Below are positions 5,955-23,002 of a stretch of DNA of 64,000 nucleotides, in pieces. The notes below the pieces were generated by a model. It was not told the DNA's origin and did not search any database. It worked only from the letters and a program-made list of their open reading frames with translations. Numbering within the stretch: position 1 is the first letter of the stretch; each line of letters starts with the position of its first letter. The position numbers and the translations under genes were made by a program. This stretch comes from Pontibacter ruber (GTDB taxonomy: Bacteria > Bacteroidota > Bacteroidia > Cytophagales > Hymenobacteraceae), in NCBI RefSeq assembly GCF_023630205.1, contig NZ_JALPRR010000002.1:300899-364898 (forward strand), given 5' to 3'.

Positions 5955-6416
5955 CTGGAGTATGTATAGAAAAGTAGAAAAGCCCGCTCATCAGCAGGTT
6001 AAAGGGAAGCATCAAAAGTAAGAAAAATCCGCTATAGTGAAAGCGGCCCCGGCAGCTAATTGCATTAAATGATACCTGGAAAGGACTGCGTTTTTGCATC
6101 ACGTCCTGTAGGTTTTACTCGTCAGTCATACTTTTTTGTACCCTGTTTGAGGGGTTGAATTTTCTTACCACAGCAATTTTTAGCGCATTAAATGTAACTC
6201 TCACAGCTTATCGAGTACAGCTCGTAATTAAATTGTGTTGCACCAATTACCTTCCTACTACAACCCCGTATATATTAATTCCTTAATAGCCCCCTATACA
6301 ACTGAGTTTTTGTAAGTATAAATATCCTGATAGCAGAAATGCTGTTGGGCATTACTCAGGTAAGTAGGCGTGCATGGAATTGAGAAACACAACTGTAAAT
6401 ATCTAACGATGAACCT

Positions 6417-9392
6417 ATGAAACGAAAATTTTTACTCTTTCTTTGCCTGTTTTGGGTACACCTTGTTTTCGCACAGGAAAACATAACCGTAACAGGTAAA
6501 GTAACAGACGCTACAAACGGACAGCCACTGATCGGGGCCGGCGTTCAGGTAAAAGGAACAACCACCGGTGTGCAGGCTGACGCAGAGGGTAATTTTACGC
6601 TGAGTGCTCCTGCAAACGGTACCCTTGTTGTTGATTACCTGGGGTATGAACGGCAAGAAGTTCCCATCAATAACCAGACAACCCTGAATATCCAGTTATC
6701 TCCTTCGGCTACAAAACTGACGGAAGTGGTGGTAACAGGTTATGGTACACAGGAAAAAAGAGACGTAACCGGCTCCATCAGCTCTGTAAAGAGCGAGGAA
6801 CTGACAAGGCAGGCATCCCAGAACCCTGTAAGTTCTATACAAGGCAAAGTGGCAGGTGTACAGATATCGAACACGGGTCAGCCGGGTGCATCCCCAACGG
6901 TACGTATCAGAGGTACGGGCTCTATTTTGGGCAGGGCAGAGCCATTGTACGTTGTAGATGGTACTATCGTGGATAACCTTAGCTTCCTGAACCCGGCAGA
7001 CATCGAATCCATGGAGATCCTGAAGGACGCCTCCAGTGCCTCAATTTATGGGTTGCGCGCAGCTAACGGTGTAATTCTGGTTACTACCAAGCGCGGACGT
7101 ACCGGTGAGCCACGTATAAATTACAATGGCTTTGTAGGCGTGCAGCGGGTAACAAACCAGGTAGAGATGGCCAATGCCAATGAATACGCCGAGCTTATCA
7201 ACCAGAAAGAAGGCACGGAACTGGTAGAACCCAACCAACCTTCTACCGACTGGTACGATGAAATCCTGCGTTCTGCCCTGATCACCAACCACCAGTTAAG
7301 CTTCTCAGGCGGTACCGATCGGCTTTCCTACAGCCTTAGTGGCGGTTACCTGAACCAGGAAGGTATTGTAGATGGTAATAAGTATGAACGCGTTACTGCC
7401 AGGCTGCAGACAGATTTTAATGTTTCAGATCATGTTAAGATAGGCTATAATGGTATATTCTACGATTATAATTCCGATGATGTGCCGACTGGTGTGGTTT
7501 ACCAGGCATACGTGATGCCTCCGGTTATACCTGTTTTCAAGGAAGATGGTAACTATGGCGATCCAATTGATTATGGCTTGGGTACTTTCGGTAACCCACG
7601 TGCCGCCCTGGATTGGTATAACCAGAAATCTGATGGACAGAGCCTGACCGGTAATGCTTTTGGTGAAGTTAAATTCCTTGAGAACTTTACCTTCCGTACC
7701 AGTTTTGGATTGAACTATGCTATAAATGAATTCCGAAACTATGTTGCGGAAGACTCGCTTACCTCTACACAAGTTGCCCGACGAAGTACCTTAACCAGAT
7801 CTAAAAGCAAGGCAACACGCTGGCTCTTCGAAAACACTTTAACTTTTGATAAACAATTCGGGGATCATGAACTGACAGTGTTATTAGGTACCTCTTCTCA
7901 GGAAGATAGAAATGAAACATTGGCAGGATCGGCCAACGATGTGCCATTTGAGTCGGAGGGTTCCTTGTACCTGAACCTGGGTGATCCTGAAACCTTCCTG
8001 ATCACCAACTCAGCAGGTAAGTCTACTTTGTTGTCTTACTTTGGTCGTGTCAACTACAGCTTCCTTAACCGCTATTTGCTCACCGCTACGCTGCGCCGGG
8101 ATGGTTCTTCCAAATTTCCGGAAGACGAGCGCTTCGATTATTTCCCGGCTGTGGGTTTAGGTTGGGTTGTGTCCGATGAGCCCTTTATGGAAGGCCAGCA
8201 AATCTTCGACTATTTCAAGTTGCGCGGCAGCTGGGGCAAGCTGGGTAACAGCGATATCCCGGCTAACATCACTGTAAGAGTACCCGACCTGGACAACCCA
8301 ATTTACATTGCCATATTGGGTGGTATACCTTATCCGGGTGGTACTTACAACCTGGCTGTACCTCCTACACTTTTTTGGGAAGTAGTTAAGGAAACAGATA
8401 TTGGGGCGGAATTTGCTTTCTTCAACAACAAACTGACAGTGGAGGCAGACTGGTATAACAGGGCCACAGAAGACGCAGTTTTCAGCACCCCACTGCTCGG
8501 GTCCCAAGGTACGCTCTCAAGTGAGGTGCTGGGTAACTTTGCTGACTTCCGGAACCGGGGCTTTGAATTTGTAGCTTCCTGGAATTCGGACAATGACACA
8601 GACTTCAGCTATACCATAAGTGGTAACTTCTCAACCAACAACAATGAAGTAACTGCAATTGCAACCGACCTTCCTCAGTTTAGTGGTGGCTTGCCGGTTG
8701 GCCGCATCTTTACAAGCGTTACCCGTGTGGGCGATCCGATTGGCTCTTTTTATGGCTATATCGTAGACGGTATTTTCCAGGATGAGCAGGAGATCGCAGG
8801 GTCGGCACAGGCTGATGTTACGGGTGTAGCGCCTGGTGATTTCCGTTACCGTGACCTTAACGGTGATAACATCATTGATGCAAGAGATAAGACTATCATA
8901 GGTAATCCGAACCCGGGCTTCTACTATGGTCTCAATACCAATTTCCGATATAAGAGCTGGGATTTTCAGTTAGACCTGCAGGGTGTAGGCGATGTGGATA
9001 TATACAATGCGAATAAAGGCGTTCGTTTTGGTAACGAGAACTACACGAAAGATTTTTATGACAACCGCTGGAATGGTCCAGGCACCTCCAACGAGTATCC
9101 GGGTCCTAACCTGAAAGATGCCAATATTCAATCCAATAGCTGGTTTGTGGAAGATGGCAGTTACATACGCATACGTAATATCCAGTTAGGATATGCCTTG
9201 CCGACAGACCTTACAAAACGCTGGAAAATGGAAGGTATCCGTTTCTTCGTTAACGCCCAGAATCCGGTAACCTGGTTTGATTACACTGGCTTTACACCGG
9301 AGGTGGGCGGTCCACCAAACAGTGCCGGCGTAGACCTGAACGTGTATCCGCTTTCTGCTACATACAATTTTGGTGTAGATGTAAACTTCTAG
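6417..9392 (+). CDS. susC: SusC/RagA-family TonB-dependent outer-membrane transporter
   Basis: 991 aa with a signal peptide. Carboxypeptidase-regulatory-like N-domain (ITVTGKVTDATNGQPLIGAGVQVKG), TonB-box-like VVVTGYG and a C-terminal beta-barrel ending in F. Immediately followed by SusD. Confidence 0.9.
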   Translation: MKRKFLLFLCLFWVHLVFAQENITVTGKVTDATNGQPLIGAGVQVKGTTTGVQADAEGNFTLSAPANGTLVVDYLGYERQEVPINNQTTLNIQLSPSATKLTEVVVTGYGTQEKRDVTGSISSVKSEELTRQASQNPVSSIQGKVAGVQISNTGQPGASPTVRIRGTGSILGRAEPLYVVDGTIVDNLSFLNPADIESMEILKDASSASIYGLRAANGVILVTTKRGRTGEPRINYNGFVGVQRVTNQVEMANANEYAELINQKEGTELVEPNQPSTDWYDEILRSALITNHQLSFSGGTDRLSYSLSGGYLNQEGIVDGNKYERVTARLQTDFNVSDHVKIGYNGIFYDYNSDDVPTGVVYQAYVMPPVIPVFKEDGNYGDPIDYGLGTFGNPRAALDWYNQKSDGQSLTGNAFGEVKFLENFTFRTSFGLNYAINEFRNYVAEDSLTSTQVARRSTLTRSKSKATRWLFENTLTFDKQFGDHELTVLLGTSSQEDRNETLAGSANDVPFESEGSLYLNLGDPETFLITNSAGKSTLLSYFGRVNYSFLNRYLLTATLRRDGSSKFPEDERFDYFPAVGLGWVVSDEPFMEGQQIFDYFKLRGSWGKLGNSDIPANITVRVPDLDNPIYIAILGGIPYPGGTYNLAVPPTLFWEVVKETDIGAEFAFFNNKLTVEADWYNRATEDAVFSTPLLGSQGTLSSEVLGNFADFRNRGFEFVASWNSDNDTDFSYTISGNFSTNNNEVTAIATDLPQFSGGLPVGRIFTSVTRVGDPIGSFYGYIVDGIFQDEQEIAGSAQADVTGVAPGDFRYRDLNGDNIIDARDKTIIGNPNPGFYYGLNTNFRYKSWDFQLDLQGVGDVDIYNANKGVRFGNENYTKDFYDNRWNGPGTSNEYPGPNLKDANIQSNSWFVEDGSYIRIRNIQLGYALPTDLTKRWKMEGIRFFVNAQNPVTWFDYTGFTPEVGGPPNSAGVDLNVYPLSATYNFGVDVNF

Positions 9393-9394
9393 AA

Positions 9395-10885
9395 ATGAAA
9401 ACAGGAACAGAACATATGGAAAAGATTTTTAAAAAGGTGAAAAGGAAAGTACCTGTATTAGCCTTTGCTCTTGCACTTGGCGCCCTTTATGCGTGTGACA
9501 AAGATTTTTTGGATGTAGAGCCGCAGGCTGCCACTGAAGAGACCTTTTTTGAGACAGAAGAGGATGCCATCAGATCAGTTAACGCCATTTATGGTAACCT
9601 CCGAGAATGGAAGGTAGCGGCTTTTGCGCACCTGGCACTTACACATGTTGCCTCCGATAATGCTGAAAAAGGTAGCGACCCGGGTGATGCCGCTTTTATG
9701 AATGACTTTGATAACTTCACTGCTTCCCCAACCCAGTTCATTCTTGATGATTACTGGACAGGGCAATACCAGGCAATTAACCTGACCAACCAGGCTATCA
9801 CCAATATTCCGCCTATCCCGATGGACGAGAACCTGAAGAACAGGTTGATAGCAGAAGCTAAGTTCCTGCGGGCGCACCACTACTTTAACCTGGTAAGGGC
9901 TTTCGGCGATGTGCCTTTGATTACCAAAATATCCAAGGAGCCGACGGCTGAAGAACTTAATCCAGGTAGAACTCCGAAAGAGCAGGTGTATGCCCAGATC
10001 ATAACTGACCTGGACTCTGCAGCCATGATCCTGCCTGTAAGGTATGGTGCTGCCGATGTAGGACGTGCTACGAAGGGAGCCGCTCTATCACTGCTGGCCA
10101 AAGTAGAAATGTACCAGAAGAACTGGCAGCAGGTGTTTGATCTTACGCAGCAGGTAATGGGGCTTGGCTATTCGCTTACTCCAAAATATTATGATATTTT
10201 CCGAATTTCCGGGGAAAATAATAGTGAGTCTATTTTCGAAGTGCAGGCTCAAACAATCCCGGGTAACTGTGGTGCCTCTAATTCTCAGTGGGCAGAAACT
10301 CAGGGAGTTCGCGGGCAGTTTGGATGGGGCTTTTTCATCCCAACCACTGACCTGGAAAATGCCTACGAACCTGGCGATGAACGCAAAGACGCAACTATAC
10401 TTTACCGGGGCGAGGTAACACCGGAAGGAGACAAGATCAATGACAACGCCCCTAATCCACGCTACAACCAGAAGGCTTATGTGCCTGCTTCAGTTACACA
10501 GGAATGCGGCTATGCCAAAGATCAGAATATCCGCATTCTGCGTTATGCGGAAGTATTGCTGATGCACGCTGAGGCAGCCAATGAGTTGGGTAATACACAA
10601 GCTGCGTTGGATGCTCTGAACCAGGTGCGAAACCGTGCGGGTTTATCCGATGTAACGGTAACTGACAAAGATGAATTGCGCAACATTATCTGGCATGAGC
10701 GCCGGGTAGAACTGGCACTGGAAAGCGGCGATCGCTTCTTCGACCTGGTGCGCCAGGGCAGGGCTGCTGAGGTGTTCCAGGCACAGGGTAAAAACTTTAT
10801 TGCAGGAAAGCATGAGGTTTTTCCTATACCACAGCGCCAGATCGACCTGAGCGCCGGCAAATTAACCCAAAACCCAGGTTATTAA
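9395..10885 (+). CDS. susD: SusD/RagB-family nutrient-binding outer-membrane lipoprotein
   Basis: 496 aa. Lipoprotein signal LAFALALGALYAC and TPR-like helical SusD features. Lies 3 nt after the susC stop. Confidence 0.9.
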   Translation: MKTGTEHMEKIFKKVKRKVPVLAFALALGALYACDKDFLDVEPQAATEETFFETEEDAIRSVNAIYGNLREWKVAAFAHLALTHVASDNAEKGSDPGDAAFMNDFDNFTASPTQFILDDYWTGQYQAINLTNQAITNIPPIPMDENLKNRLIAEAKFLRAHHYFNLVRAFGDVPLITKISKEPTAEELNPGRTPKEQVYAQIITDLDSAAMILPVRYGAADVGRATKGAALSLLAKVEMYQKNWQQVFDLTQQVMGLGYSLTPKYYDIFRISGENNSESIFEVQAQTIPGNCGASNSQWAETQGVRGQFGWGFFIPTTDLENAYEPGDERKDATILYRGEVTPEGDKINDNAPNPRYNQKAYVPASVTQECGYAKDQNIRILRYAEVLLMHAEAANELGNTQAALDALNQVRNRAGLSDVTVTDKDELRNIIWHERRVELALESGDRFFDLVRQGRAAEVFQAQGKNFIAGKHEVFPIPQRQIDLSAGKLTQNPGY

Positions 10886-10895
10886 TCAATGATAA

Positions 10896-10938
10896 AAGTA
10901 TAGAGCCGCCAATGCGCGGCTCTATACTTTTTATACTT
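10896..10938 (+). terminator. intrinsic terminator hairpin between susD and the first hydrolase
   Basis: Stem aaagtatagagccgc / gcggctctatacttt (15 bp), 6-nt loop, followed by a T-rich tail. The arms carry the AAGTATA motif. Confidence 0.6.
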
Positions 10939-10959
10939 TCTTTAGATTTCACCAACGGC

Positions 10960-12558
10960 ATGCAATACATCTGGCTATGCTTCTTCGTGCTTTTATTTCT
11001 GTCTTGTAATGAGAAAAAGGAAGAACCGGTAAAAAAGCCGGTTGATCCGGTACAGCCTCCTGTTTCGACAGTATCTGATAAAGAACTGCTGGACAAGGTA
11101 CAGGAGGCAACATTCCGTTATTTCTGGGATTTTGCCCATCCGGTTTCCGGCATGGCACGCGAGCGTTCCAGCTCGGGCGATGTGGTTACCAGTGGCGGTA
11201 CAGGCTTTGGCGTGCAGGCGATTGTCGTTGGGGTAAGCAGAGGCTGGATCACAAGGCAGGAAGCGGTTGAGCGTCTGAACAAGCTGTGTGATTTTCTTTC
11301 CAAAGCAGAACGCTTCCACGGCGCCTGGCCCCACTGGCTAAACGGCAGCACGGGAGCGGTTATACCTTTCAGCGCAAAAGATAACGGGGGAGACCTGGTA
11401 GAGACTTCCTACCTCATAAATGGCTTGCTTACTGCCCGCGCATACTTTAACGGAGCCGATGCCCGGGAAACGGAGTTGCGCGATAAGATCACCCAACTAT
11501 GGGAAACAGTAGAATGGAGTTGGTACGCTTCCCGCGGCGACGGCCTCTTGTACTGGCACTGGAGCCGGAGCTTTGGGTGGGAGATGAACATGCCCATACG
11601 TGGCTGGAACGAAGCCCTTATAACCTACATCCTGGCACTTGGCTCACCCACACACCCGATCACTCCCGAAGTATACCAGCGCACCTGGGTTAACCGGAAC
11701 GAAGGTACTTACGAAGGTTACCGGCTCAGCATGGGGCCGGGGTATGGCGGTCCATTGTTCTTTGCTCACTATTCCTTCCTGAGCCTCGACCCGAAACAAA
11801 TGGAAGACCAGTATACCCATTACTGGATGCACAATCTCAAACATACACTCATCAACCGGGCCTGGAGTATTTACAGCGCAACTAAAAGTTATGGCTACTC
11901 GACCGGCAACTGGGGGCTCACCGCCTCCGACGATCCGGAAGGATACAAGGCGCACCAGCCAACCAACGACAACGGTACCATCGCGCCGACGGCTGCCCTG
12001 TCCTCTTTTCCTTATACCCCGTACTACTCCATGCAGGCGCTGCGCCATTTCGAAAGTATGGGCGCACAGCTTTGGGGCACGTATGGCTTTAAGGATGCTT
12101 TTAACAAATCGCGCAACTGGGTGGCAAAAGATTATCTGGCCATTGACCAGGGGCCAATCGTCGCGATGATCGAGAATTACAGGAGCGGCCTGCTGTGGTC
12201 TTTGTTTACCGATCTGCCGGAGGTGCAGGCAGGGCTTGCGAAAGCAGGCATCCGGAAGCCGGTGTACGACACAGGTTTTCCTTTGGCAATACCGGATGTA
12301 AGAACGAGCACAGTCGATCTGCTGAAACACCCGGACAAAGGGGCGTACCAGGTAGAAGTAGCGGTGAAAAATGCCGATCCTTTCGTGCTGACTTTGGAAA
12401 AACCAGACGGAAGTATAGCCGAGACGATCTGGAATAATGAAACCAAAACCAATGGACTACACCAGGTTAATTTTGGTGCCAGCCTGCAGCCCGGAGCGTA
12501 TAAACTACGGCTAAAAGGAGGCACTATCGATAAAGAACTTTCTGTATACCTGCATTAA
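10960..12558 (+). CDS. GH144 (DUF3131)-like (alpha/alpha)6 glycoside hydrolase, putative endo-beta-1,2-glucanase; lipoprotein
   Basis: The ORF-track start at 10912 lies inside the terminator. The in-frame ATG at 10960 gives MQYIWLCFFVLLFLSC, a lipoprotein signal. Conserved block FRYFWDFAHPVSGMARERS...GTGFG...RFHGAWPHWLNG...GGDLVETSYL is shared with two paralogs in this locus. Confidence 0.65.
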   Translation: MQYIWLCFFVLLFLSCNEKKEEPVKKPVDPVQPPVSTVSDKELLDKVQEATFRYFWDFAHPVSGMARERSSSGDVVTSGGTGFGVQAIVVGVSRGWITRQEAVERLNKLCDFLSKAERFHGAWPHWLNGSTGAVIPFSAKDNGGDLVETSYLINGLLTARAYFNGADARETELRDKITQLWETVEWSWYASRGDGLLYWHWSRSFGWEMNMPIRGWNEALITYILALGSPTHPITPEVYQRTWVNRNEGTYEGYRLSMGPGYGGPLFFAHYSFLSLDPKQMEDQYTHYWMHNLKHTLINRAWSIYSATKSYGYSTGNWGLTASDDPEGYKAHQPTNDNGTIAPTAALSSFPYTPYYSMQALRHFESMGAQLWGTYGFKDAFNKSRNWVAKDYLAIDQGPIVAMIENYRSGLLWSLFTDLPEVQAGLAKAGIRKPVYDTGFPLAIPDVRTSTVDLLKHPDKGAYQVEVAVKNADPFVLTLEKPDGSIAETIWNNETKTNGLHQVNFGASLQPGAYKLRLKGGTIDKELSVYLH

Positions 12559-12568
12559 ATCTATACCT

Positions 12569-14002
12569 ATGAAACAACTATACCGCTACTTTACAGGCAG
12601 CTGCAGCTTCAAAAAGTACCTGTTCTTGCCTCTGGGCATGCTGCTGCTTTTTAGCTGCCGGCAAACTGCCGAAACAGGTCAAACTACTCAGACCGAAGAA
12701 ACCGCACAGGCCGCAGATACTGTCGCAACAGCAGCAACCAGCAACCAAAAGCTCAACGACGAAGAACTGCTTAACCTGCTGCAGCAGCAGACCTTCCAGT
12801 ATTTCTGGGAAGGAGCAGAGCCAACTTCGGGTGCGGCCCGTGAGCGCATTCATTTGGATGGTGAGTACCCGGAGAACGACCAGAACGTGGTAACCACAGG
12901 CGCCACCGGCTTTGGCGTGATGGCCATACTTGTCGGTATCGAGCGGGGCTTTATTACCCGTGAAGAAGGAGTGGAGCGGCTCGAGAAGATCGTAAGTTTT
13001 CTGGAAAAGGCCGACCGTTTCCATGGAGCCTGGCCGCACTGGCTGCAGGGCGAAACCGGTAAAGTAAAGCCGTTCAGTCCCAAAGACGATGGCGGCGACC
13101 TGGTAGAAACGTCCTTTCTGGTGCAGGGCTTGTTAACGGTACGGCAATACCTGACAGGGGAAAACGAAGCTGAAAAAGCCCTGGCTAACCGCATCAACAA
13201 ACTATGGCAGGACGTGGAGTGGGACTGGTACCGCAACAAGCAAAATGTACTGTACTGGCACTGGTCGCCAAAGTATGCCTGGCAGATGAACTTTCCGGTA
13301 AAGGGCTATAACGAGTGCCTCATTATGTACGTGCTGGCAGCCTCTTCGCCTACGCACACCATACCGGCTGCCGTATACCACGAAGGCTGGGCTCAAAACG
13401 GGGCAATCAAAGATAACGTGGACATGTATGGCTATAAGATAGGATTGTTTCACCAGGGCCAGAAAGGCAGCGTAGGCCCCTTGTTCTGGGCGCATTACTC
13501 CTACTTAGGCCTCGATCCGCGCGGGCTCAAAGACAAGTATGCCGATTACTGGGAGCACAATAAAAACCACACGCTCATCAACTATGCTTACTGTGTCGAT
13601 AACCCGAAAAACTACAAAGGCTACGGCGAAAATGCCTGGGGGCTTACCTCCAGCTACTCGCCCAGAGGCTATGCCGGCCACTGCCCCAACGAAGACCTGG
13701 GGGTGATCACGCCGACGGCGGCCTTGTCCTCTTTTCCTTACGCACCCGAAGAATCCATGAAAGTGATCCGCCATCTGTATGAAGACTTGGGTGAAAAGGT
13801 TGTCGGGAAGTATGGCCCTTACGATGCTTACAGCGAGCAGGAGAACTGGTTTCCGCAGCGCTACCTGGGCATCGATCAGGGCCCGATCGTGGTGATGGTG
13901 GAAAACCAGCGCAGCGGTTTGTTGTGGGACCTGTTCATGAGTGCACCCGAAGTACAGGCCGGCCTGAAGAAGCTGGGTTTCGAGAGCCCTCACCTGAAGT
14001 AA
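12569..14002 (+). CDS. GH144 (DUF3131)-like glycoside hydrolase paralog 2; lipoprotein
   Basis: 477 aa. Lipobox LLLFSC and the same conserved blocks: FQYFWEGAEPTSGAARERI, RFHGAWPHWLQG, GGDLVETSFL. Confidence 0.65.
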   Translation: MKQLYRYFTGSCSFKKYLFLPLGMLLLFSCRQTAETGQTTQTEETAQAADTVATAATSNQKLNDEELLNLLQQQTFQYFWEGAEPTSGAARERIHLDGEYPENDQNVVTTGATGFGVMAILVGIERGFITREEGVERLEKIVSFLEKADRFHGAWPHWLQGETGKVKPFSPKDDGGDLVETSFLVQGLLTVRQYLTGENEAEKALANRINKLWQDVEWDWYRNKQNVLYWHWSPKYAWQMNFPVKGYNECLIMYVLAASSPTHTIPAAVYHEGWAQNGAIKDNVDMYGYKIGLFHQGQKGSVGPLFWAHYSYLGLDPRGLKDKYADYWEHNKNHTLINYAYCVDNPKNYKGYGENAWGLTSSYSPRGYAGHCPNEDLGVITPTAALSSFPYAPEESMKVIRHLYEDLGEKVVGKYGPYDAYSEQENWFPQRYLGIDQGPIVVMVENQRSGLLWDLFMSAPEVQAGLKKLGFESPHLK

Positions 14003-14044
14003 TCAGGAAAAAAACTTTAAGTTACACTTTCATACTTAGACAAC

Positions 14045-15790
14045 ATGATGAAGCCATCAAATAATAAGATTCTCTTGTTATTGATCCCTGTGATCATGGT
14101 AGTAAGCTGCCTCTCCAGTGTACAGGCGCAGTCGAAAGGACCAACCACCTATTGTAATCCGCTTAACCTGGATTATACTTACATGATCTACAACGCGCAC
14201 CAGGACCTCTCGTATCGTTCCGGCGCTGACCCGGCTGTCGTAGAGTTCCGGGATGAGTATTACATGTTTGTGACCCGCTCCATGGGCTACTGGCACTCGA
14301 CGGACCTGACCAACTGGACCTTTATCAACCCCGAAAAATGGTACTTCCAGGGATCCAATGCGCCCGCAGCTTTCAACTACAAAGATTCGGTACTGTACGT
14401 GGCAGGCGATCCATCCGGATCCATGAGTATACTTTACACCGACAACCCCAAAAAAGGAGACTGGAAAGCTACGCCAGCCATTCTAAACGACCTGCAGGAC
14501 CCGGCCCTGTTTATAGACGATGACGGCAAAACCTACATGTACTGGGGCTCATCCAACGTATTTCCTATCCGGGTAAAGACCCTAGACCGCAGCAAGCGTT
14601 TCCGTCCTTCCGAAAAAACCTGGGAGCTGTTTAAGCTGGATATGAGCAAACACGGCTGGGAGCGCTTCGGTGAAAACCACGCCGACACCGCCCGTGGTTA
14701 CATGGAAGGTGCCTGGATGACCAAGCACAACGGCACATACTACCTACAGTATGCAGCCCCGGGCACGGAGTTCAATGTTTATGCCGATGGCGTGTACACC
14801 AGCGACTCACCATTAGGACCTTTCAAGTATGCGCCCAATAACCCCATATCTTACAAGCCGGGCGGGTTTGCCAATGGTGCGGGGCACGGCAGCACTGTGC
14901 TGGGTCCACAAAACCAGTGGTGGCATTTTGCCTCGGCTTCGGTTTCTGTAAACGTGAACTGGGAGCGCCGCCTGAACATGTTCCCGACCTTTTTCGACAA
15001 GGATGGCCTGATGTACATGAATACCTCCTTTGGTGACTATCCACACTTTGCGCCTTCGGTGCCAGGCAAGATGGGGCAGTTTGCCGGCTGGATGCTGCTC
15101 TCTTACAACAAGCCGGTAAAAGTCTCTTCTACGCTCGAAAAATTTGGAGCCGAAAACATCGTGGATGAAAACATCCGCTCCTTCTGGGTAGCGCAGAAAA
15201 ACGACGACCAGCAGTGGATCGAGATCGACCTGCAAAAGCCGGGCAAAGTATACGCCATCCAGCTGAACTACCACGATTACAAGTCAGATCTTTACGGCAA
15301 AATTCCGGGCCTCAAGCACCAGTATACCATCGAAGGTTCTACAGACGGAAAGAGCTGGAAGATGCTGGTTGATAAAAAGAATAACGACAAAGATGTGCCC
15401 AACGATTATGTAGAGTTGCCAACGCCGGAAACGGTGCGATACGTGCGTTTCAGAAGCTACCATGCGCCAACGCCTAACCTGGCGATCTCCGGTTTGCGCG
15501 TATTTGGTAAAGGCAGTGGTAAAGCACCGGACAGGGTTAAAAGTTTTACTGTAAAGCGCCAGCAGGATAGAAGGGATGCACAGATCAATTGGGCTGCAAT
15601 ACCGGGTGCGCAAGGCTATAACATACGCTGGGGCATCGCCCCCGACAAGCTCTACAGTTCGTGGATGGTGTACGGCGAAAACTCCCTTTACATGAGAAGC
15701 CTGACAGTAGACCAGACCTATTATTTTACGATCGAAGCATTTAACGAGAACGGAGTTTCGAAGCAGGTAAAGGTGGTAAAGGTAAACTAA
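14045..15790 (+). CDS. GH43-like five-bladed beta-propeller glycoside hydrolase with C-terminal F5/8-type-C (discoidin) and Fn3 domains
   Basis: 581 aa with a signal peptide. ADPAVVEFRDEYYMF (catalytic-base blade) and EGAWMTKHNGTYYLQYAAPG (acid) are GH43-like. C-terminal NIVDENIRSFWVAQKNDDQQWIEIDL is discoidin-like, followed by an Fn3-like segment. Confidence 0.55.
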   Translation: MMKPSNNKILLLLIPVIMVVSCLSSVQAQSKGPTTYCNPLNLDYTYMIYNAHQDLSYRSGADPAVVEFRDEYYMFVTRSMGYWHSTDLTNWTFINPEKWYFQGSNAPAAFNYKDSVLYVAGDPSGSMSILYTDNPKKGDWKATPAILNDLQDPALFIDDDGKTYMYWGSSNVFPIRVKTLDRSKRFRPSEKTWELFKLDMSKHGWERFGENHADTARGYMEGAWMTKHNGTYYLQYAAPGTEFNVYADGVYTSDSPLGPFKYAPNNPISYKPGGFANGAGHGSTVLGPQNQWWHFASASVSVNVNWERRLNMFPTFFDKDGLMYMNTSFGDYPHFAPSVPGKMGQFAGWMLLSYNKPVKVSSTLEKFGAENIVDENIRSFWVAQKNDDQQWIEIDLQKPGKVYAIQLNYHDYKSDLYGKIPGLKHQYTIEGSTDGKSWKMLVDKKNNDKDVPNDYVELPTPETVRYVRFRSYHAPTPNLAISGLRVFGKGSGKAPDRVKSFTVKRQQDRRDAQINWAAIPGAQGYNIRWGIAPDKLYSSWMVYGENSLYMRSLTVDQTYYFTIEAFNENGVSKQVKVVKVN

Positions 15791-15844
15791 GCCACCGTTC
15801 AGGACTAACGAAGTATAGGTTGCACTGAAGAAAGCAAACCAAGT

Positions 15845-18028
15845 ATGAAACACGGTATCCTCTTCTTTCTTTTCTTGTTTTGCCAGTTAGTCGTTTTCGG
15901 TCAGGAAACGCCCTACACGCAGGTGTTCTTTGAGAACAGCCTGATGAGCAGGGATCACTACTACTCGACGGCAACCTATACTGCGCCTGGTTGGGTGAAG
16001 AACAGCCAAAACAAACTGCCGGTAAGCGAGGAGGTGTTTTTTACGCCGGGCAATTCGCTGGAGCTCCGGTATGTGTCGGCACCCAAAGGCAGTTGGCAGG
16101 CGCAGGTGCTCTACCACCCTATCCGGGGTATCGATTTCCTGAAGCCTGCTACCATGCTCACCTTTAGGTTGCTTGTCAAGTCTGAAACGGCCGCCCCGGA
16201 GCTGCCTGCCGTGGCCATTGGTAAGCGGGAGGCAAAGGAATTATCCGCTTTCGTACTGCTTCAGAACTTTGTCAAAGAGTATAAAACCAACGCCTGGCTA
16301 ACGGTGCAGGTGCCGCTCAACAGCTTCAAGGATTTGAGCTACAAGGAGAGTAAGGAGATCGATGTGATCGCTTTTCGGCAGCAGGGCAGCGACGGCAAAG
16401 AGCATGTTTTATACTTGGACCAACTGGAACTGACACCTGCTCCGGCCAGTCAGAAAATAACTGCTGCCCCCAAACTTACCGCCGCAACCGGCTATGAGAA
16501 ACATGTAAGTATAGCCTGGGAAAAGATCACCGATCCGGCAGTGCGCTATGTGCAGGTATACCGTTCATCAGACAACAAAAACTTTACACCTGTGGCAATA
16601 GAGTCGCCAGTGTTAAGCCGCTACGACGATTTTGTAGGCACTACAGGCCAAACGTTCCATTACAAGATCAGTTTCCTCGACGACAACTATACTGAAACGG
16701 CTCAGTCTAACATAGTCAATGCCTCCACACGCCCCATGACGGATGAAGAACTGCTGACGATGGTGCAGGAGGCGCACTTCCGTTATTACTGGGACGGTGC
16801 GGAACCAAACAGCGGGCTGGCGCTTGAGAACATTCCCGGGCGCAGAACCATGGTGGCTTCCGGTGCTTCCGGCTTTGGCATGATGGCGTTGCTGGCAGGT
16901 ATAGAACGCAAGTTTATTACGCGGGAGCAGGGCGTGGAGCGGTTTGTACAGATCGTGAACTACCTGGACAAAGCGGAGAAATTCCATGGTGCTTTCTCGC
17001 ATTTTCTGGATGGCAATACGGGTAAGGTGGTACCTTTCTTTGGCCCGAAAGATAATGGTGGCGACCTGGTCGAAACAGCTTTCCTGGCGCAGGGCCTGCT
17101 TGCTGCACGGGCCTACTTCAACGGCAATAACCAGCAGGAAAAACTCATCCGCGATAAGATCACCGGCATCTGGCGCGGCATCGAGTGGAGTTGGTACCGG
17201 CGCGAAAAGAATAACCCGTACCTGCTCTGGCACTGGTCGCCGGACCAGGCCTGGGTGATCAACCACAAGCTCATCGGCTGGAACGAAACCATGATCGTGT
17301 ACCTGCTCGGCATTTCGTCGCCTTCGCATAGCATACCGGCCAACATGTACTACACCGGCTGGGCAAGCCAGGATGCGGAAGCACAGAAATACCGCTCCGA
17401 CTGGGGCCAGACAAAGGAGGGAAGCAAGTATACCAATGGCAACTCTTACTATGGCATTCCGCTAAAAGTGGGCGTCTCCAACGGAGGTCCCTTGTTTTTT
17501 ATCCACTATTCTTACTTAGGGCCGGATCCGAAAAAGATACAGGACAAGTATACCGACTACTTCAGCAACAACCGCAACATTGCCCTTATCAACTACCGTT
17601 ACTGCGTGGAGAACCCGGAAAAGCACCAGGGCTACGGCGAAGGTGCCTGGGGACTTACTGCCAGCGATGGCCCCTGGGAGTATTCAGCCAGCGAGCCGGT
17701 CCCACGGGCGGATGAGGGCAAAATGACACCAACGGGCGCCCTTGCTTCTTTTCCGTACACACCCGAAGAGTCGATGCAGGCACTGAAGAATTATTACCGC
17801 AACTACGGTCATTTTTTGTGGGGAGCCTATGGTTTCCGGGATGCCTATAACCTGAACGAGAACTGGGTGTCGCCGCTGTACATGGGGCTAAACCAGGCAC
17901 CGATCGTGGTCATGATCGAGAACTACCGCAGTGGCCTGCTCTGGAACCTGTTTATGAGCAACAAGGAAGTGCAGGAAGGCTTACGGAAGATAAAGGCTGC
18001 AGGCAGTATCTCCACGAAAAAGAGATAG
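15845..18028 (+). CDS. GH144 (DUF3131)-like glycoside hydrolase paralog 3 with ~300-aa N-terminal extension
   Basis: 727 aa with a signal peptide. C-terminal half has FRYYWDGAEPNSGLALENI, KFHGAFSHFLDG and GGDLVETAFL, matching the other two paralogs. Confidence 0.65.
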   Translation: MKHGILFFLFLFCQLVVFGQETPYTQVFFENSLMSRDHYYSTATYTAPGWVKNSQNKLPVSEEVFFTPGNSLELRYVSAPKGSWQAQVLYHPIRGIDFLKPATMLTFRLLVKSETAAPELPAVAIGKREAKELSAFVLLQNFVKEYKTNAWLTVQVPLNSFKDLSYKESKEIDVIAFRQQGSDGKEHVLYLDQLELTPAPASQKITAAPKLTAATGYEKHVSIAWEKITDPAVRYVQVYRSSDNKNFTPVAIESPVLSRYDDFVGTTGQTFHYKISFLDDNYTETAQSNIVNASTRPMTDEELLTMVQEAHFRYYWDGAEPNSGLALENIPGRRTMVASGASGFGMMALLAGIERKFITREQGVERFVQIVNYLDKAEKFHGAFSHFLDGNTGKVVPFFGPKDNGGDLVETAFLAQGLLAARAYFNGNNQQEKLIRDKITGIWRGIEWSWYRREKNNPYLLWHWSPDQAWVINHKLIGWNETMIVYLLGISSPSHSIPANMYYTGWASQDAEAQKYRSDWGQTKEGSKYTNGNSYYGIPLKVGVSNGGPLFFIHYSYLGPDPKKIQDKYTDYFSNNRNIALINYRYCVENPEKHQGYGEGAWGLTASDGPWEYSASEPVPRADEGKMTPTGALASFPYTPEESMQALKNYYRNYGHFLWGAYGFRDAYNLNENWVSPLYMGLNQAPIVVMIENYRSGLLWNLFMSNKEVQEGLRKIKAAGSISTKKR

Positions 18029-18095
18029 AACAAATATCCAAAGTATAAACGAATTGCAACAGAACCGTATCAGTAACAAAACAAACACAGCGATA

Positions 18096-20435
18096 ATGAA
18101 AACAACATCTACGATACTCATGCTGCTCCTCTGCATGGGTTGCGCACAGACAACTACGCCACCCCAGGAATCAACTACAACACAAACCGAAACAGCACCT
18201 GCTACAACGCCTTCCACGCGTTCCTCAGATCCGGAAATGGACAAGTTTATAGATGACCTGATGGCCAAAATGACGCTGGAAGAAAAGATCGGGCAGTTGA
18301 ACCTGGTGTCGGTAGGCTTTGACGTGACCGGGCCCGTAGTAAGCGAGAACGTTGATGAAAACATCCGCAAAGGAAATGTGGGCGGTGTATTTAACACCTT
18401 CACGCCAATAGCAGTCCGCAAGCTGCAGGACATGGCCATGAACAACACGCGCCTCAAAATTCCGCTGATCTTTGGCTACGATGTCATCCACGGCCACCGT
18501 ACCATTTTCCCGATTCCCTTGGGGCTGGCTTCCAGCTGGGACCTGAATGCCATTGAGCGCAGCGCCCGTATAGCTGCCGAAGAAGCCACTGCCGATGGTT
18601 TGAACTGGGTTTTCTCCCCAATGGTGGATATTGCCCGCGATCCGCGCTGGGGCCGTATTTCGGAAGGTGCTGGCGAAGATCCCTGGCTGGGCTCCAGAGT
18701 TGGGGAAGCAATGGTGCGTGGGTATCAGGGCGAAGACATGAAAGCAAATAATACGGTAATGGCCTGTGTGAAGCACTTTGCGCTTTACGGAGCTGCCGAA
18801 GCCGGCCGCGATTACAACACCGTAGACATGAGCCTGCAGCGTATGTATAACGAATACCTGCCTCCTTATAAAGCCGCCATCGATGCCGGAGCAGGCAGCG
18901 TGATGTCTTCATTCAACGAGATCAACGGCGTACCAGCTACCGGTAACAAATGGCTGATGACTGACCTGCTGCGCAAGCAGTGGGGCTTTGATGGTTTTGT
19001 GGTAACGGATTATACTGCGATTAACGAGATGATACCGCACGGTGTGGGTAACGAGGCCGAAGTAGCCGCCCTGGCACTAAAAGCCGGCGTTGACATGGAC
19101 ATGGTGGGTGAGCTTTTCCTGAAGGAACTCGGGCCTATGGTAAAAAGCGGAAAGGTAACCGAAGAAGAGATCAACACGGCCTGTCGCCGTGTGCTGGAGG
19201 CAAAGTATAAACTGGGGCTTTTCCAGGACCCATACCGTTACATCAACGACGAGCGTGCCAAAAGTACTATGATGAAAAAAGAGTATGTTGATGCCTCGCG
19301 CGACATTGCCCGCAGAAGTATGGTACTGCTCAAGAACGAGAAAAATGCACTGCCCCTGAAGCAGTCCGGTTCTATCGCCCTGATCGGGCCGCTTGCCCGT
19401 AACCAGCGCGACCTGATCGGTAACTGGAGCGGCGCCGGCGACTGGAAAAAAGCCGTATCGGTAGAGCAGGGCATACGCAACGTGGTAGGCAACAAGGTGA
19501 AGATCAACTACGCCAAAGGAGCCAACCTGACAGACGACGCCCAGATGATCCGCAGGCTGAATGCGCACGGAGGCGACCTGGAGTTGGATAAGCGCTCTTC
19601 CGAAGCCATGATTCGCGAAGCGGTGCAGGTTGCACGCAAATCAGACGTGATCGTAGCTGTGGTAGGTGAGTCGCAGGGCATGACCGGGGAGGCAGCCAGC
19701 CGTGCTGATATCACCTTGCCAGGGCAGCAACTGGCCTTGCTCAAAGCCCTGAAAGCAACCGGCAAACCGCTGGTGATCGTGCTGATGAACGGCCGTCCGC
19801 TTGCACTTGCCTGGGAGCATGAAAACGCCAACGCCATACTCGAAACCTGGTTTGCAGGTACCGAAGCCGGAAACGCTATCGCAGATGTACTTTACGGCAA
19901 CTATAACCCGTCAGGCAAGCTGACAGTTACTTTCCCGGTGGAGGTAGGGCAGGTGCCGATCTACTACAATGCCAAGAACACGGGCCGGCCCTACGGCGGA
20001 GACGAACTGGACAAGTATAAATCACGCTACATGGATGTGCCGAATGAACCGCTTTATCCGTTTGGTTATGGCCTGAGCTATACCACGTTCAGCTATTCTA
20101 AGCCGCAACTGAGCGCAACAACGCTGCAGGGAACACAGCCGCTGGAAGTGCGGGTAGACGTGCGAAACACCGGTAACTACGATGGCGAGGAAGTGGTGCA
20201 GCTCTATGTGCAGGATGTGGTAGGCTCGATAACCCGCCCGGTAAAAGAACTGAAAGGTTTCCAGAAGATCGCCCTGAAAAAAGGCGAAAGCAAGACCGTC
20301 ACCTTCCGGATTTCGGCTGATGACCTGAAATTTTATAACAACGAGCTGCAGTATGTGAACGAGCCCGGCGAGTACAGGGTGTATGTAGGCACCAACAGCC
20401 GCGATGTGCAGGCAGCCTCTTTCCGCTTGCAGTAG
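18096..20435 (+). CDS. bglX: GH3 beta-glucosidase (BglX-like), lipoprotein
   Basis: The ORF track starts at a TTG at 18054. The in-frame ATG at 18096 gives MKTTSTILMLLLCMGC, a lipobox. GH3 N-domain (KIPLIFGYDVIHGH, SPMVDIARDPRWGR) plus the C-terminal alpha/beta and FnIII-like domains. Confidence 0.88.
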   Translation: MKTTSTILMLLLCMGCAQTTTPPQESTTTQTETAPATTPSTRSSDPEMDKFIDDLMAKMTLEEKIGQLNLVSVGFDVTGPVVSENVDENIRKGNVGGVFNTFTPIAVRKLQDMAMNNTRLKIPLIFGYDVIHGHRTIFPIPLGLASSWDLNAIERSARIAAEEATADGLNWVFSPMVDIARDPRWGRISEGAGEDPWLGSRVGEAMVRGYQGEDMKANNTVMACVKHFALYGAAEAGRDYNTVDMSLQRMYNEYLPPYKAAIDAGAGSVMSSFNEINGVPATGNKWLMTDLLRKQWGFDGFVVTDYTAINEMIPHGVGNEAEVAALALKAGVDMDMVGELFLKELGPMVKSGKVTEEEINTACRRVLEAKYKLGLFQDPYRYINDERAKSTMMKKEYVDASRDIARRSMVLLKNEKNALPLKQSGSIALIGPLARNQRDLIGNWSGAGDWKKAVSVEQGIRNVVGNKVKINYAKGANLTDDAQMIRRLNAHGGDLELDKRSSEAMIREAVQVARKSDVIVAVVGESQGMTGEAASRADITLPGQQLALLKALKATGKPLVIVLMNGRPLALAWEHENANAILETWFAGTEAGNAIADVLYGNYNPSGKLTVTFPVEVGQVPIYYNAKNTGRPYGGDELDKYKSRYMDVPNEPLYPFGYGLSYTTFSYSKPQLSATTLQGTQPLEVRVDVRNTGNYDGEEVVQLYVQDVVGSITRPVKELKGFQKIALKKGESKTVTFRISADDLKFYNNELQYVNEPGEYRVYVGTNSRDVQAASFRLQ

Positions 20436-20463
20436 CTGGTATGATTTAAATTCAGCCACCCCT

Positions 20464-20513
20464 GCTAACAGCAATTTTGGCTGTTAGCAGGGGTGGCTTC
20501 TTATTAACAGACA
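20464..20513 (+). terminator. strong intrinsic terminator closing the PUL
   Basis: Perfect 18-19 bp stem agccacccctgctaacagc / gctgttagcaggggtggct, 7-nt loop, then TTCTTATT. Confidence 0.8.
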
Positions 20514-20522
20514 TCCTTATCT

Positions 20523-22982: not shown

Positions 22983-23002
22983 TGCGCTGAGAAGTACAAC
23001 CA

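What the first reader, a model, noticed from the sequence alone, without database searches (positions are those of the whole stretch)
6417..20513. PUL with three GH144/DUF3131-like paralogs plus GH3 and GH43-like enzymes: predicted beta-1,2-glucan utilization locus lacking a linked regulator
The genes susC-susD are followed by three lipoprotein or secreted (alpha/alpha)6 hydrolases. All three share the FRYFWD...SG.ARE, GTGFG, RFHGAWPHWL and GGDLVETSFL blocks. A GH43-like propeller with discoidin and Fn3 domains and a GH3 beta-glucosidase complete the locus, all on one strand and closed by a strong terminator. The characterised endo-beta-1,2-glucanase of Chitinophaga pinensis, the founding member of GH144, is encoded next to a GH3 beta-glucosidase in a SusCD locus, so the predicted substrate is beta-1,2-glucan, for example cyclic glucans of Proteobacteria. 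Triplication of the GH144-like gene, one copy with a ~300-aa N-terminal extension, suggests sub-specialisation by chain length or by cyclic versus linear substrate. No HTCS, ECF-sigma/anti-sigma, SusR, AraC or LacI regulator lies within or next to the locus. The upstream neighbour is a purine permease. The family assignment is from motif memory, not from an HMM search.
Basis: partly seen in the sequence, partly recalled or inferred. Interest (0 to 1): 0.55.

Follow-up and report, generated by a model that had tools for sequence, protein, structure and literature searches.

The report
Beta-1,2-glucan utilization locus, Pontibacter ruber
This is a standard Bacteroidota sugar-harvesting gene cluster for bacterial beta-1,2-glucans; it belongs to a widespread, already catalogued class, and only its conserved GH43-type enzyme, its esterase and its missing regulator are open questions.

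Summary
Window 6417-20435 encodes, on one strand, SusC, SusD, three PF10091 (GH144-type) proteins, a GH43 + F5/8-C (+ weak Fn3) protein and a BglX-type GH3. A 19-bp hairpin follows.

The family assignment is now tested. Copy b is 70% identical to the founding endo-beta-1,2-glucanase CpSGL. Copy c matches the exo-sophorohydrolase BDI_3064 over its full length, N-terminal domain included. All three copies keep the catalytic and clan residues.

The source is Pontibacter ruber. PULDB already lists "GH144 GH3 GH43_28" as a recurrent PUL class (77-85 loci, none characterised).

- The three copies are old paralog lineages found together in other genera, not a local triplication.
- The secreted esterase just past the hairpin (20523-21320) is a conserved member of such loci.
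- Relatives usually carry a BguR-type one-component regulator directly upstream of susC. P. ruber lacks both the gene and its operator-like motif.

The GH43-like protein is at least 68% identical in 80 loci from Bacteroidota and Acidobacteriota. It sits next to GH144 genes in 41 of 48 long loci and has no characterised close relative.

Verdict: a new member of a known kind, of modest interest.

The parts
5955..6416 (+). Upstream intergenic region of 462 nt (presumed promoter). It has no BguR gene and no BguR operator-like motif. The octamer CGTATATA at 6267-6274 is conserved in Pontibacter.
   Evidence: tblastn with 16 BguR-like proteins found nothing in the window. The PWM best score was 6.6 bits, against 15-25 bits for true sites. 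The octamer occurs once in the window, and 162-176 nt upstream of susC in 6 of the 7 other Pontibacter loci; in L006 the susC start is miscalled, so the distance is unreliable.
6417..9392 (+). SusC-type TonB-dependent outer-membrane transporter (991 aa) with a signal peptide and no STN domain.
   Evidence: TIGR04056, 885.9 bits (cut-off 368); also TIGR04057, CarbopepD_reg_2 and Plug.
9395..10885 (+). SusD-type surface glycan-binding lipoprotein (496 aa).
   Evidence: PF07980 at 8.7e-38 and PF14322 at 7e-25. The lipobox is LYAC followed by DKD.
10894..10931 (+). 16-bp hairpin followed by a U-rich tract, between susD and the first GH144 gene. It is a candidate intra-operon attenuator or RNA-stability element.
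   Evidence: Folding gives -25.5 kcal/mol and z -5.2.
10912..12558 (+). GH144 paralog a. It is a lipoprotein whose likely start is 10960, with a ~100-aa C-terminal extension seen only in Pontibacter orthologs. Predicted endo-beta-1,2-glucanase and the best candidate for the surface enzyme.
   Evidence: PF10091 at 7.6e-70. 473 bits to 5GZH, 54% identity to CpSGL, with the catalytic residues kept. Clade a. Extension.
12569..14002 (+). GH144 paralog b (477 aa, lipoprotein). It is an ortholog-grade relative of the founding endo-beta-1,2-glucanase CpSGL (Cpin_6279).
   Evidence: PF10091 at 1.7e-82. 715 bits to 5GZK/5GZH and 70% identity. Falls in the same NJ clade as CpSGL.
14045..15790 (+). GH43 five-bladed propeller + F5/8 type C (CBM32-like) + weak Fn3 (581 aa, secreted). 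Probably CAZy subfamily GH43_28. Specificity unknown.
   Evidence: PF04616 at 96 bits and PF00754. D62, D152 and E221 are invariant. AF2 pLDDT 93; Foldseek TM 0.70-0.72 to GH43 structures at about 20% identity. Synteny. PULDB class 'GH144 GH3 GH43_28'.
15845..18028 (+). GH144 paralog c (727 aa, SPI signal peptide). It is the BDI_3064 type with a ~290-aa N-terminal domain. [quoted passage not shown]
   Evidence: 947.7 bits to 5Z06 over residues 21-718. 57% identity overall, 39% in the N-terminal domain. Clade c. BDI_3064 activity.
18054..20435 (+). GH3 BglX-type beta-glucosidase. It is a lipoprotein whose likely start is 18096.
   Evidence: NF011678, 1082 bits (cut-off 666). PF00933, PF01915 and PF14310. 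926 bits to 5XXL (BT_3567).
20454..20498 (+). 19-bp GC-rich hairpin between GH3 and the esterase, with a weak U-tract. Unique in the window.
20523..21320 (+). Secreted alpha/beta-hydrolase carboxylesterase (265 aa). Predicted to remove O-acyl (succinyl or acetyl) groups from the glucan.
   Evidence: Pfam Abhydrolase_2, Peptidase_S9 and DLH. 3DOH esterase at 5.7e-48. Homologs occur in 24 of 80 related loci, in several of them between the GH144 and GH43 genes.

Best explanation
This is a polysaccharide utilization locus of Pontibacter ruber for beta-1,2-glucans, meaning cyclic or linear osmoregulated or periplasmic glucans released by other bacteria.

Proposed flow:
1. SusD and a surface-anchored endo-beta-1,2-glucanase bind and cut the polymer. 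GH144 copy a is the most likely surface enzyme; it is a lipoprotein with acidic residues after the lipid-modified Cys and a Pontibacter-specific C-terminal beta-sandwich.
2. SusC imports the oligosaccharides.
3. In the periplasm, the CpSGL-like endo-glucanase (copy b) shortens them. The BDI_3064-like exo enzyme (copy c) releases sophorose from the non-reducing end of chains of DP 4 or more. The BglX-type GH3 converts sophorose and sophorotriose to glucose.
4. The secreted esterase just downstream removes O-acyl substituents such as succinyl or acetyl.
5. The highly conserved GH43 (probably GH43_28) with its CBM32-like domain removes a still unidentified decoration or linkage.

Shown here: gene content, family membership, conserved catalytic residues and synteny. 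Inferred: cellular location of each enzyme, order of action, and the substrates of the esterase and of the GH43.

Unlike most relatives, the locus has no adjacent BguR-type regulator. It is therefore either controlled in trans or expressed constitutively.
For: - Family and ortholog evidence.
- Catalytic and clan residues D135, D139, E142, E211, F268 and Y330 (CpSGL numbering) are kept in all three paralogs. The roles of E211, F268 and Y330 are from PMC12102758.
- BDI_3064 releases sophorose from Sop4 and longer chains (PMC11975218).
- BT_3567 prefers beta-1,2-glucooligosaccharides and linear beta-1,2-glucans (PMC11842490).
- Lapebie et al. 2019 list 'GH144 GH3' (202 PULs) and 'GH144 GH3 GH43_28' (77-85 PULs, 28-29 genera, 5 classes) and attribute them to beta-1,2-glucan.
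- The order susC-susD-GH144(1-3)-GH43-GH3 recurs in most of the 80 related loci. Among the 48 long loci, 41 have GH144 and 40 have GH3. The same enzyme set occurs with a non-SusCD TonB receptor in Acidobacteriota.
- Related loci carry an esterase of one of two types in 22 of 48 long loci. Among all 80 loci, EEP phosphoesterases occur in 7 and GH30 in 5. This matches the known succinyl, acetyl, phosphoglycerol and phosphoethanolamine substituents and the beta-1,6-Glc branches of natural beta-1,2-glucans.
- Signal peptides and lipoboxes.
Against: - No expression or growth data exist, and no enzyme from this locus has been assayed.
- GH43 enzymes are known for arabinofuranosides, xylosides and galactosides, none of which is a known component of beta-1,2-glucans. 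The real substrate could therefore be a heteroglycan.
- Sulfatase + FGE genes occur in 18 related loci, including other Pontibacter. They point to a sulfated glycan that has not been described.
- A GH35 in another GH144 PUL turned out to be a beta-1,2-galactosidase rather than a glucan enzyme (PMC11739564).
- The 19-bp hairpin between GH3 and the esterase may separate transcription units.
- Surface versus periplasmic location of copies a and b is inferred only from residues after the lipobox.
Confidence: 0.8

Rival explanations
1. The locus targets a decorated or mixed glycan in which beta-1,2-glucan is only the backbone or one motif, for example an acylated, phosphorylated, sulfated or pentose/galactofuranose-branched polymer. 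The GH43_28-type enzyme and the esterase would then be essential debranching steps rather than accessories. GH43_28 would have a specificity not yet described for GH43.
For: - The GH43-like protein is at least 68% identical across the 80 best genome loci, from Bacteroidota and Acidobacteriota. It sits next to GH144 in 41 of 48 long loci.
- In a 50%-identity library it forms essentially one cluster. The only full-length member is 76% identical, and the next relatives are at or below 50%.
- No close solved or characterised relative exists: Foldseek hits are about 20% identical, and no paper in the library links GH43 to beta-1,2-glucooligosaccharides.
- Esterases, sulfatase/FGE, EEP phosphoesterase and GH30 genes recur in these loci.
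- Lapebie et al. propose an unknown sulfated variant of the glycan.
- There is a precedent for an unexpected activity, a beta-1,2-galactosidase, in a GH144 PUL.
Against: - 202 catalogued PULs have only GH144 + GH3, so the plain glucan is sufficient for many species.
- P. ruber has lost the sulfatase, FGE, SGNH esterase and second GH43 present in its congeners.
- The GH43 occurs without GH144 in 7 of 48 long loci.
- No chemistry for such a decorated glycan is known beyond acyl and phospho substituents.
Confidence: 0.35
2. The GH43 gene is a passenger. It would be an ordinary arabinofuranosidase or xylosidase for plant hemicellulose that happens to sit in this operon, and the esterase would be an unrelated neighbour separated by a terminator.
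For: - Pfam GH43 and the nearest structures are xylosidases and arabinofuranosidases.
- A strong hairpin precedes the esterase.
- In Sphingobacterium sp. SRCM116780 the ortholog stands alone.
Against: - Conserved position between GH144 and GH3 genes across five classes of Bacteroidota, and linkage to GH3 + PF10091 in Acidobacteriota.
- No other hemicellulase is present in the locus.
- Esterase homologs lie inside the operon in 9 related loci: L031, L038, L042, L048, L070, L071, L072, L075 and L082.
Confidence: 0.1
3. The three GH144 copies are functionally redundant endo-glucanases (gene dosage) rather than specialised enzymes.
For: All three keep the same catalytic and clan residues and the same Pfam domain.
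Against: - The copies are 47-51% identical to each other and fall in three old clades with different lengths, signal types and extra domains.
- Copy c matches the exo-acting BDI_3064 over its full length.
- The same a + b + c set is kept in other Pontibacter and in Chitinophagaceae.
Confidence: 0.1

Closest known systems
PULDB/CAZy PUL class 'GH144 GH3 GH43_28' and 'GH144 GH3' (Lapebie et al. 2019, Nat Commun, PMC6499787)
   Same: SusC/SusD with GH144, GH3 and a GH43 (subfamily 28 in PULDB), attributed to beta-1,2-glucan. The class is found in Bacteroidia, Flavobacteriia, Cytophagia, Sphingobacteriia and Chitinophagia. The same gene order occurs in most of the 80 loci fetched here.
   Different: This locus has three GH144 genes, as do only 7 of 48 long related loci. 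It lacks the LamG-type 'unk' gene after susD, the SGNH esterase, the sulfatase/FGE pair and the regulator that many members carry. The subfamily 28 label was not tested here with dbCAN.
CpSGL (Cpin_6279), endo-beta-1,2-glucanase of Chitinophaga pinensis, founding member of GH144 (PDB 5GZH/5GZK)
   Same: Copy b is 70% identical, aligns end to end and sits in the same tree clade. D135, D139, E142, E211, F268 and Y330 are conserved in all three copies.
   Different: Copies a and c are only 54% and 50% identical to CpSGL. Copy a has an extra C-terminal domain and copy c an extra N-terminal domain.
[quoted passage not shown]
   Same: Copy c aligns over residues 21-718 with residues 3-702 of BDI_3064 (947.7 bits) and is 57% identical. 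It has the same two-part architecture with a ~290-aa N-terminal domain.
   Different: The N-terminal domain is only 39% identical. Exo activity is inferred, not shown.
BT_3567 (PDB 5XXL) and other BglX-type GH3 beta-glucosidases
   Same: Three-domain GH3. NF011678 scores 1082 bits, and the match to BT_3567, which prefers beta-1,2-glucooligosaccharides and linear beta-1,2-glucans, scores 926 bits.
   Different: The best solved match is a metagenomic beta-glucosidase (3U48, 1008 bits). Linkage preference cannot be read from the sequence.
BguR-regulated beta-glucan PULs (bioRxiv 10.64898/2026.01.10.698779)
   Same: Relatives of this locus carry a Reg_prop + Y_Y_Y + TM + GerE one-component regulator directly upstream of susC. 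This holds for 15 of the 19 loci where at least 1.5 kb upstream is visible, including six Pontibacter species. The preprint reports the same for GH144 PULs.
   Different: P. ruber has no such gene in 64 kb. It has no operator-like motif upstream of susC. No P. ruber protein appears among the 120 best BguR homologs. P. aquaedesilientis (L005) also lacks the linked gene.

Membership tests
Polysaccharide utilization locus (Sus-like system) | Adjacent susC-like TonB-dependent transporter and susD-like lipoprotein genes | tested here: met
   TIGR04056 scores 885.9 bits (cut-off 368). PF07980 and PF14322 hit the next gene, 2 nt downstream.
Polysaccharide utilization locus (Sus-like system) | Co-oriented, tightly spaced genes for secreted carbohydrate-active enzymes | tested here: met
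   Five glycoside hydrolase genes lie on the same strand with gaps of 10-54 nt. All have signal peptides or lipoboxes.
Polysaccharide utilization locus (Sus-like system) | Substrate-dependent induction by a dedicated regulator | not testable with these tools
   No regulator gene is in the window. No expression data are available.
GH144 (beta-1,2-glucanase family, clan GH-S) | Sequence membership: PF10091 domain and significant similarity to CpSGL | tested here: met
   PF10091 at 7.6e-70, 1.7e-82 and 2.2e-68. Matches to 5GZH/5GZK at 8e-141, 4e-214 and 3e-127. dbCAN itself was not available.
GH144 (beta-1,2-glucanase family, clan GH-S) | Conserved general-acid Glu (E211 in CpSGL) and clan-defining Phe/Tyr (F268, Y330) | tested here: met
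   Copy a has E218/F267/Y329 (numbered from M17). Copy b has E249/F306/Y368. Copy c has E481/F551/Y613. The residue roles are from PMC12102758.
GH144 (beta-1,2-glucanase family, clan GH-S) | Hydrolysis of beta-1,2-glucosidic bonds with inversion | not testable with these tools
   Needs recombinant enzyme assays.
BDI_3064-type exo-sophorohydrolase (within GH144) | Full-length architecture: N-terminal ~280-aa domain plus a GH144 barrel | tested here: met
   Copy c residues 21-718 align with 5Z06 residues 3-702 at 947.7 bits and 57% identity. It falls in a separate tree clade of ~720-aa proteins.
BDI_3064-type exo-sophorohydrolase (within GH144) | Release of sophorose from the non-reducing end of Sop4 and longer chains | not testable with these tools
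   The activity is known for BDI_3064 only.
GH3 BglX-type beta-glucosidase | NCBIfam equivalog score above cut-off and the three GH3 domains | tested here: met
   NF011678 scores 1082.1 bits (cut-off 666). PF00933, PF01915 and PF14310 all hit.
GH43 | Pfam GH43 domain above the gathering score, and a five-bladed beta-propeller fold | tested here: met
   PF04616 scores 96.4 bits (cut-off 32.2). The AF2 model has pLDDT 93.2. Foldseek gives TM 0.70-0.72 and probability 1.00 to GH43 structures.
GH43 | Catalytic Asp (base), Asp (pKa modulator) and Glu (acid) | tested here: met
   D62, D152 and E221 are invariant in 20 orthologs. They are at least 90% conserved in 55 diverse homologs. Their assignment to these roles is by motif position (DP..., DP.LF.DDDG, EG.W), not by structural superposition.
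GH43 subfamily 28 | Assignment by the CAZy/dbCAN subfamily model | not tested
   No dbCAN was available. The label is inferred from two facts: GH43_28 is the GH43 subfamily that PULDB records with GH144 + GH3, and orthologs of this protein occupy exactly that position.
BguR-regulated beta-glucan PUL | Gene for a Reg_prop/Y_Y_Y-TM-GerE one-component regulator next to susC | tested here: not met
   tblastn with 16 BguR-like proteins gave no hit better than E 0.12 in the 64-kb window. The upstream gene is a permease on the other strand.
BguR-regulated beta-glucan PUL | Operator-like motif upstream of susC (derived here from 14 BguR-bearing loci: GATGTAGTAnTGTAGAGG) | tested here: not met
   The best score in 5955-6416 is 6.6 bits, against 15.4-24.9 bits for the training sites. 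110 positions in the window reach 5 bits or more. The motif is my own derivation; the published logo is not in the text.

The most novel reading that the evidence does not exclude
The tightly conserved GH43 (probable GH43_28) + CBM32-like enzyme, together with the esterase, marks a debranching or deprotecting step on native beta-1,2-glucans that nobody has characterised. The GH43 would have a specificity new to the family, for example cleaving a beta-1,6-glucosyl or other side group, or the alpha-1,6 closure of cyclic glucans. The true substrate of this very common PUL class would then be a decorated glucan rather than the plain polymer. P. ruber, which has shed the sulfatase, SGNH esterase, second GH43 and BguR regulator of its congeners, would be a minimal natural version in which to test this.
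Probability: 0.3. Interest if true: 0.55.

Novelty: new member of a known kind. Interest (0 to 1): 0.3.

Why it matters
Beta-1,2-glucans are periplasmic and secreted glucans of Proteobacteria, used in osmoregulation, symbiosis and virulence. PULs that degrade them are among the most frequent in Bacteroidota, yet none of the GH144 + GH3 + GH43_28 type had been characterised when the class was catalogued in 2019.

This locus adds no new principle. It does give a compact example that holds both endo types and the exo type of GH144, plus the two uncharacterised conserved partners (the GH43 and the esterase). It also shows that the usual BguR regulator can be lost. The most useful follow-up is biochemical: determine what the GH43 and the esterase do to native glucans.

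Tried and rejected
1. I looked for a BguR-type regulator or its remnant. tblastn of 16 homologs against the window found nothing.
2. An apparent resemblance of window 6304-6321 (TGAGTTTTTGTAAGTA) to the operator-like site of P. chitinilyticus was rejected: it does not appear among the five best PWM scores for the upstream region, the best of which is only 6.6 bits.
3. A Gibbs-sampler motif search timed out. I replaced it with a hand-aligned PWM.
4. A search for a P. ruber BguR homolog elsewhere in the genome found none among the 120 best hits.
5. The first AF2 model of the full GH43 protein, built from a shallow alignment, was poor (pLDDT 58.6) and was not used.
6. The T9SS C-terminal sorting domain idea for the copy-a extension was not supported. 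The only Pfam hits were NOMO_5th and PPC at E about 0.1, far below threshold, and no NCBIfam family matched the protein.
7. Rfam found no RNA family in 4000-24000.
8. The hairpin at 20454-20498 is not a repeated element.
9. Abe et al. 2017, the CpSGL paper, is not held.
10. The Lapebie supplements list no PUL string for the species fetched here, so the GH43_28 label could not be transferred directly.

Full report
**What is there.** The + strand between 6417 and 20435 carries seven tightly packed ORFs, with gaps of 2-54 nt.
- SusC scores 885.9 bits on TIGR04056, well above the cut-off of 368.
- SusD hits PF07980 and PF14322.
- Three proteins of 548, 477 and 727 aa hit PF10091 ('putative glucoamylase', the Pfam model covering GH144) and nothing else.
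- A 581-aa protein has GH43 (PF04616, 96 bits) and F5/8 type C domains.
- A 793-aa protein is a BglX-type GH3 (NF011678, 1082 bits).
- A C-terminal Fn3 in the GH43 protein is only weakly detected.
- A 19-bp hairpin (-41 kcal/mol, z -7.6) follows GH3. A second hairpin of 16 bp with a U-tract lies between susD and the first GH144 gene.
- N-termini indicate lipoproteins for SusD, GH144a (from M17), GH144b and GH3 (from M15). GH144c and the esterase have SPI signals. The GH43 N-terminus fits either an SPI site (VQA-Q) or a lipobox (VVS-C).

**Source.** The GH43 protein is 100% identical to a protein annotated in Pontibacter ruber (Hymenobacteraceae, Cytophagales).

**Family assignment, now tested.**
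- Copy b gives 715 bits against CpSGL (Cpin_6279; 5GZH/5GZK), the founding endo-beta-1,2-glucanase of GH144, and is 70% identical to it.
- Copy c gives 947.7 bits against BDI_3064 (5Z06) over its whole length. It is 57% identical overall and 39% in the N-terminal domain.
- BDI_3064 is an exo enzyme that releases sophorose from beta-1,2-glucooligosaccharides of DP 4 or more (PMC11975218).
- Copy a is 54% identical to CpSGL.
- All three keep E211, F268 and Y330. PMC12102758 gives these as the general acid and the residues defining the SGL clan. All three also keep D135, D139 and E142. The importance of those last three rests partly on my memory of Abe et al. 2017; E142 is named as a candidate base in PMC11842490.
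- The GH3 is close to BT_3567 (5XXL, 926 bits), a beta-glucosidase that prefers beta-1,2-glucooligosaccharides and linear beta-1,2-glucans.

**Not a local triplication.** The copies are 47-51% identical to each other. In a tree of 95 GH144 sequences from related loci they fall in three clades:
- clade a, 16 sequences;
- clade b, 68 sequences, containing CpSGL;
- clade c, 11 sequences of ~720 aa.

The order a-b-c recurs in P. anaerobius, P. chinhatensis and P. mucosus. All three types also co-occur in Chitinophagaceae loci. Among long related loci, 17 have one GH144 gene, 17 have two and 7 have three.

**The locus class is already catalogued.** Lapebie et al. 2019 name GH144 PULs among the abundant PULs of Bacteroidetes and attribute them to beta-1,2-glucans. 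Their supplementary tables list 'GH144 GH3' (202 PULs) and 'GH144 GH3 GH43_28' (77-85 PULs, 28-29 genera, five classes, no characterised example).

I fetched 80 genome loci encoding orthologs of the GH43 protein (68-80% identical) and mapped the window's proteins onto them. The order susC-susD-GH144(1-3)-GH43-GH3 is the rule. Of the 48 long loci, 41 have GH144 and 40 have GH3. In Pyrinomonadaceae (Acidobacteriota) the same GH43 (71-72% identical) lies with a non-SusCD TonB receptor, TPR proteins, a GH3 and a PF10091 protein.

**The boundary should move.** The secreted alpha/beta-hydrolase esterase at 20523-21320, just beyond the hairpin, has homologs in 24 of the 80 loci. In 9 of them (L031, L038, L042, L048, L070, L071, L072, L075, L082) the homolog lies between other enzyme genes of the locus, and in eight of these directly between a GH144 gene and the GH43 gene. 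In other Pontibacter the 3' end reads GH3 - sulfatase - (FGE) - second GH43 - esterase. P. ruber has only GH3 - hairpin - esterase.

Other recurrent accessory genes in relatives:
- a LamG-type lipoprotein after susD (28 loci);
- an SGNH esterase (23 loci);
- a sulfatase (18 loci) and FGE (6 loci);
- an EEP phosphoesterase (7 loci);
- PhyH (7 loci);
- GH30 (5 loci).

Natural beta-1,2-glucans carry succinyl or acetyl, phosphoglycerol and phosphoethanolamine groups, and in OPGs beta-1,6-glucose branches (PMC11842490). That gives the esterases, phosphoesterases and GH30 plausible roles. This step is inference.

**The GH43 protein is the least understood part.**
- Its catalytic triad positions (D62, D152, E221) are invariant.
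- A good AF2 model of the catalytic domain (pLDDT 93.2) is a five-bladed propeller. Its best solved matches are only 19-22% identical (TM 0.70-0.72): beta-xylosidases and arabinofuranosidases.
- In a library clustered at 50% identity, the orthogroup has a single full-length representative (76% identical). The next relatives are at or below 50%.
- I found no paper linking a GH43 to beta-1,2-glucooligosaccharides.
- The subfamily label GH43_28 is inferred from PULDB, not tested.

**Regulation.** Pfam scans of the ORFs of 200 aa or more across the window, and of several shorter ones next to the locus, show none of the PUL regulator types, and SusC lacks an STN domain.

This is a departure from relatives rather than a trait of the class. 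In 15 of the 19 related loci where at least 1.5 kb upstream of susC is visible, including six Pontibacter species, a ~960-aa Reg_prop + Y_Y_Y + TM + GerE protein sits directly upstream. This is the BguR type of membrane-spanning one-component regulator. A 2026 preprint reports it as consistently associated with GH144 PULs.

In BguR-bearing loci I found a conserved motif: ACTACATCATTACCTCTCAT after the regulator gene, and the inverted GATGTAGTAnTGTAGAGG upstream of susC (90-100 nt upstream in the Pontibacter loci). A PWM built from it finds nothing above background upstream of the P. ruber susC. No BguR homolog is in the window, and none labelled P. ruber is among the 120 best database hits. 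P. aquaedesilientis, the closest relative sampled, also lacks the linked gene.

A different short element, CGTATAYA, occurs once in the whole window, 150 nt upstream of susC. It lies 162-176 nt upstream of susC in six of the seven other Pontibacter loci; in L006 the susC start is miscalled. Its meaning is unknown.

**Verdict.** It is a new member of a well-populated, already predicted PUL class whose key enzymes have characterised orthologs, so interest is modest. The open points are the function of the conserved GH43 and esterase partners, and how the locus is controlled without BguR.

Noticed in passing
window 6267-6274: The octamer CGTATATA (pattern CGTATAYA) occurs once in the 64-kb window, 150 nt upstream of susC. 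It lies 162-176 nt upstream of susC in six of the seven other Pontibacter loci (L006 start miscalled), with or without a BguR gene. It may be a promoter or operator element.
   Followed up: partly
window 10894-10931: A 16-bp hairpin with a U-rich tail sits directly after susD and overlaps the first possible start codon of the next gene. It suggests intra-operon attenuation, and that the GH144a gene really starts at 10960.
   Followed up: partly
L006, L008-L011, L015, L023, L030, L041, L046, L049, L076, L079, L081 (regulator-susC intergenic regions): A conserved motif marks BguR-bearing GH144 loci. ACTACATCATTACCTCTCAT lies just after the regulator's stop codon, and its inverted form GATGTAGTAnTGTAGAGG lies upstream of susC (90-100 nt in the Pontibacter loci). 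It is a candidate operator and is absent from the P. ruber window.
   Followed up: partly
window 12262-12555 (C-terminus of GH144 copy a): A ~100-aa C-terminal extension with no Pfam family occurs only in Pontibacter orthologs (540-560 aa, against 452-499 aa elsewhere in clade a). The Pontibacter loci lack the LamG-type lipoprotein gene that follows susD in 28 other loci, so the extension may replace it.
   Followed up: partly
L001, L002, L012, L027, L029 (Pyrinomonadaceae / Acidobacteriota): The GH43 ortholog is 70-72% identical to the Pontibacter protein. It is linked to GH3 and PF10091 genes, with a non-SusCD TonB receptor and TPR proteins. This suggests transfer of the enzyme set between phyla.
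   Followed up: partly
L045 ('Williamsia sp.' MAG) and L080 ('Thalassovita sp.' MAG): These contigs are labelled as actinobacterial and alphaproteobacterial MAGs, yet they carry susC/susD genes beside the GH43 ortholog. They are probably mis-binned Bacteroidota contigs.
   Followed up: no
window 23474-24274 (- strand): A HipA-like kinase (PF20613) also matches the PADLOC candidate defence family PDC-M66A (E 5e-23).
   Followed up: no
window 30295-38879: A cluster of poorly annotated genes: ORFs of 210 and 711 aa with no Pfam hit, a DMP19-like protein, and a 1655-aa DUF3686 + DUF7902 + AAA ATPase. It has only a very weak PADLOC hit (mad8, E 2e-4). It may be a defence or DNA-repair island.
   Followed up: partly
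window 41158-41907 (- strand): A WYL + HTH_11 transcription factor is the only clear DNA-binding regulator found among the ORFs scanned with Pfam. It lies 20 kb from the PUL and there is no reason to link them.
   Followed up: no
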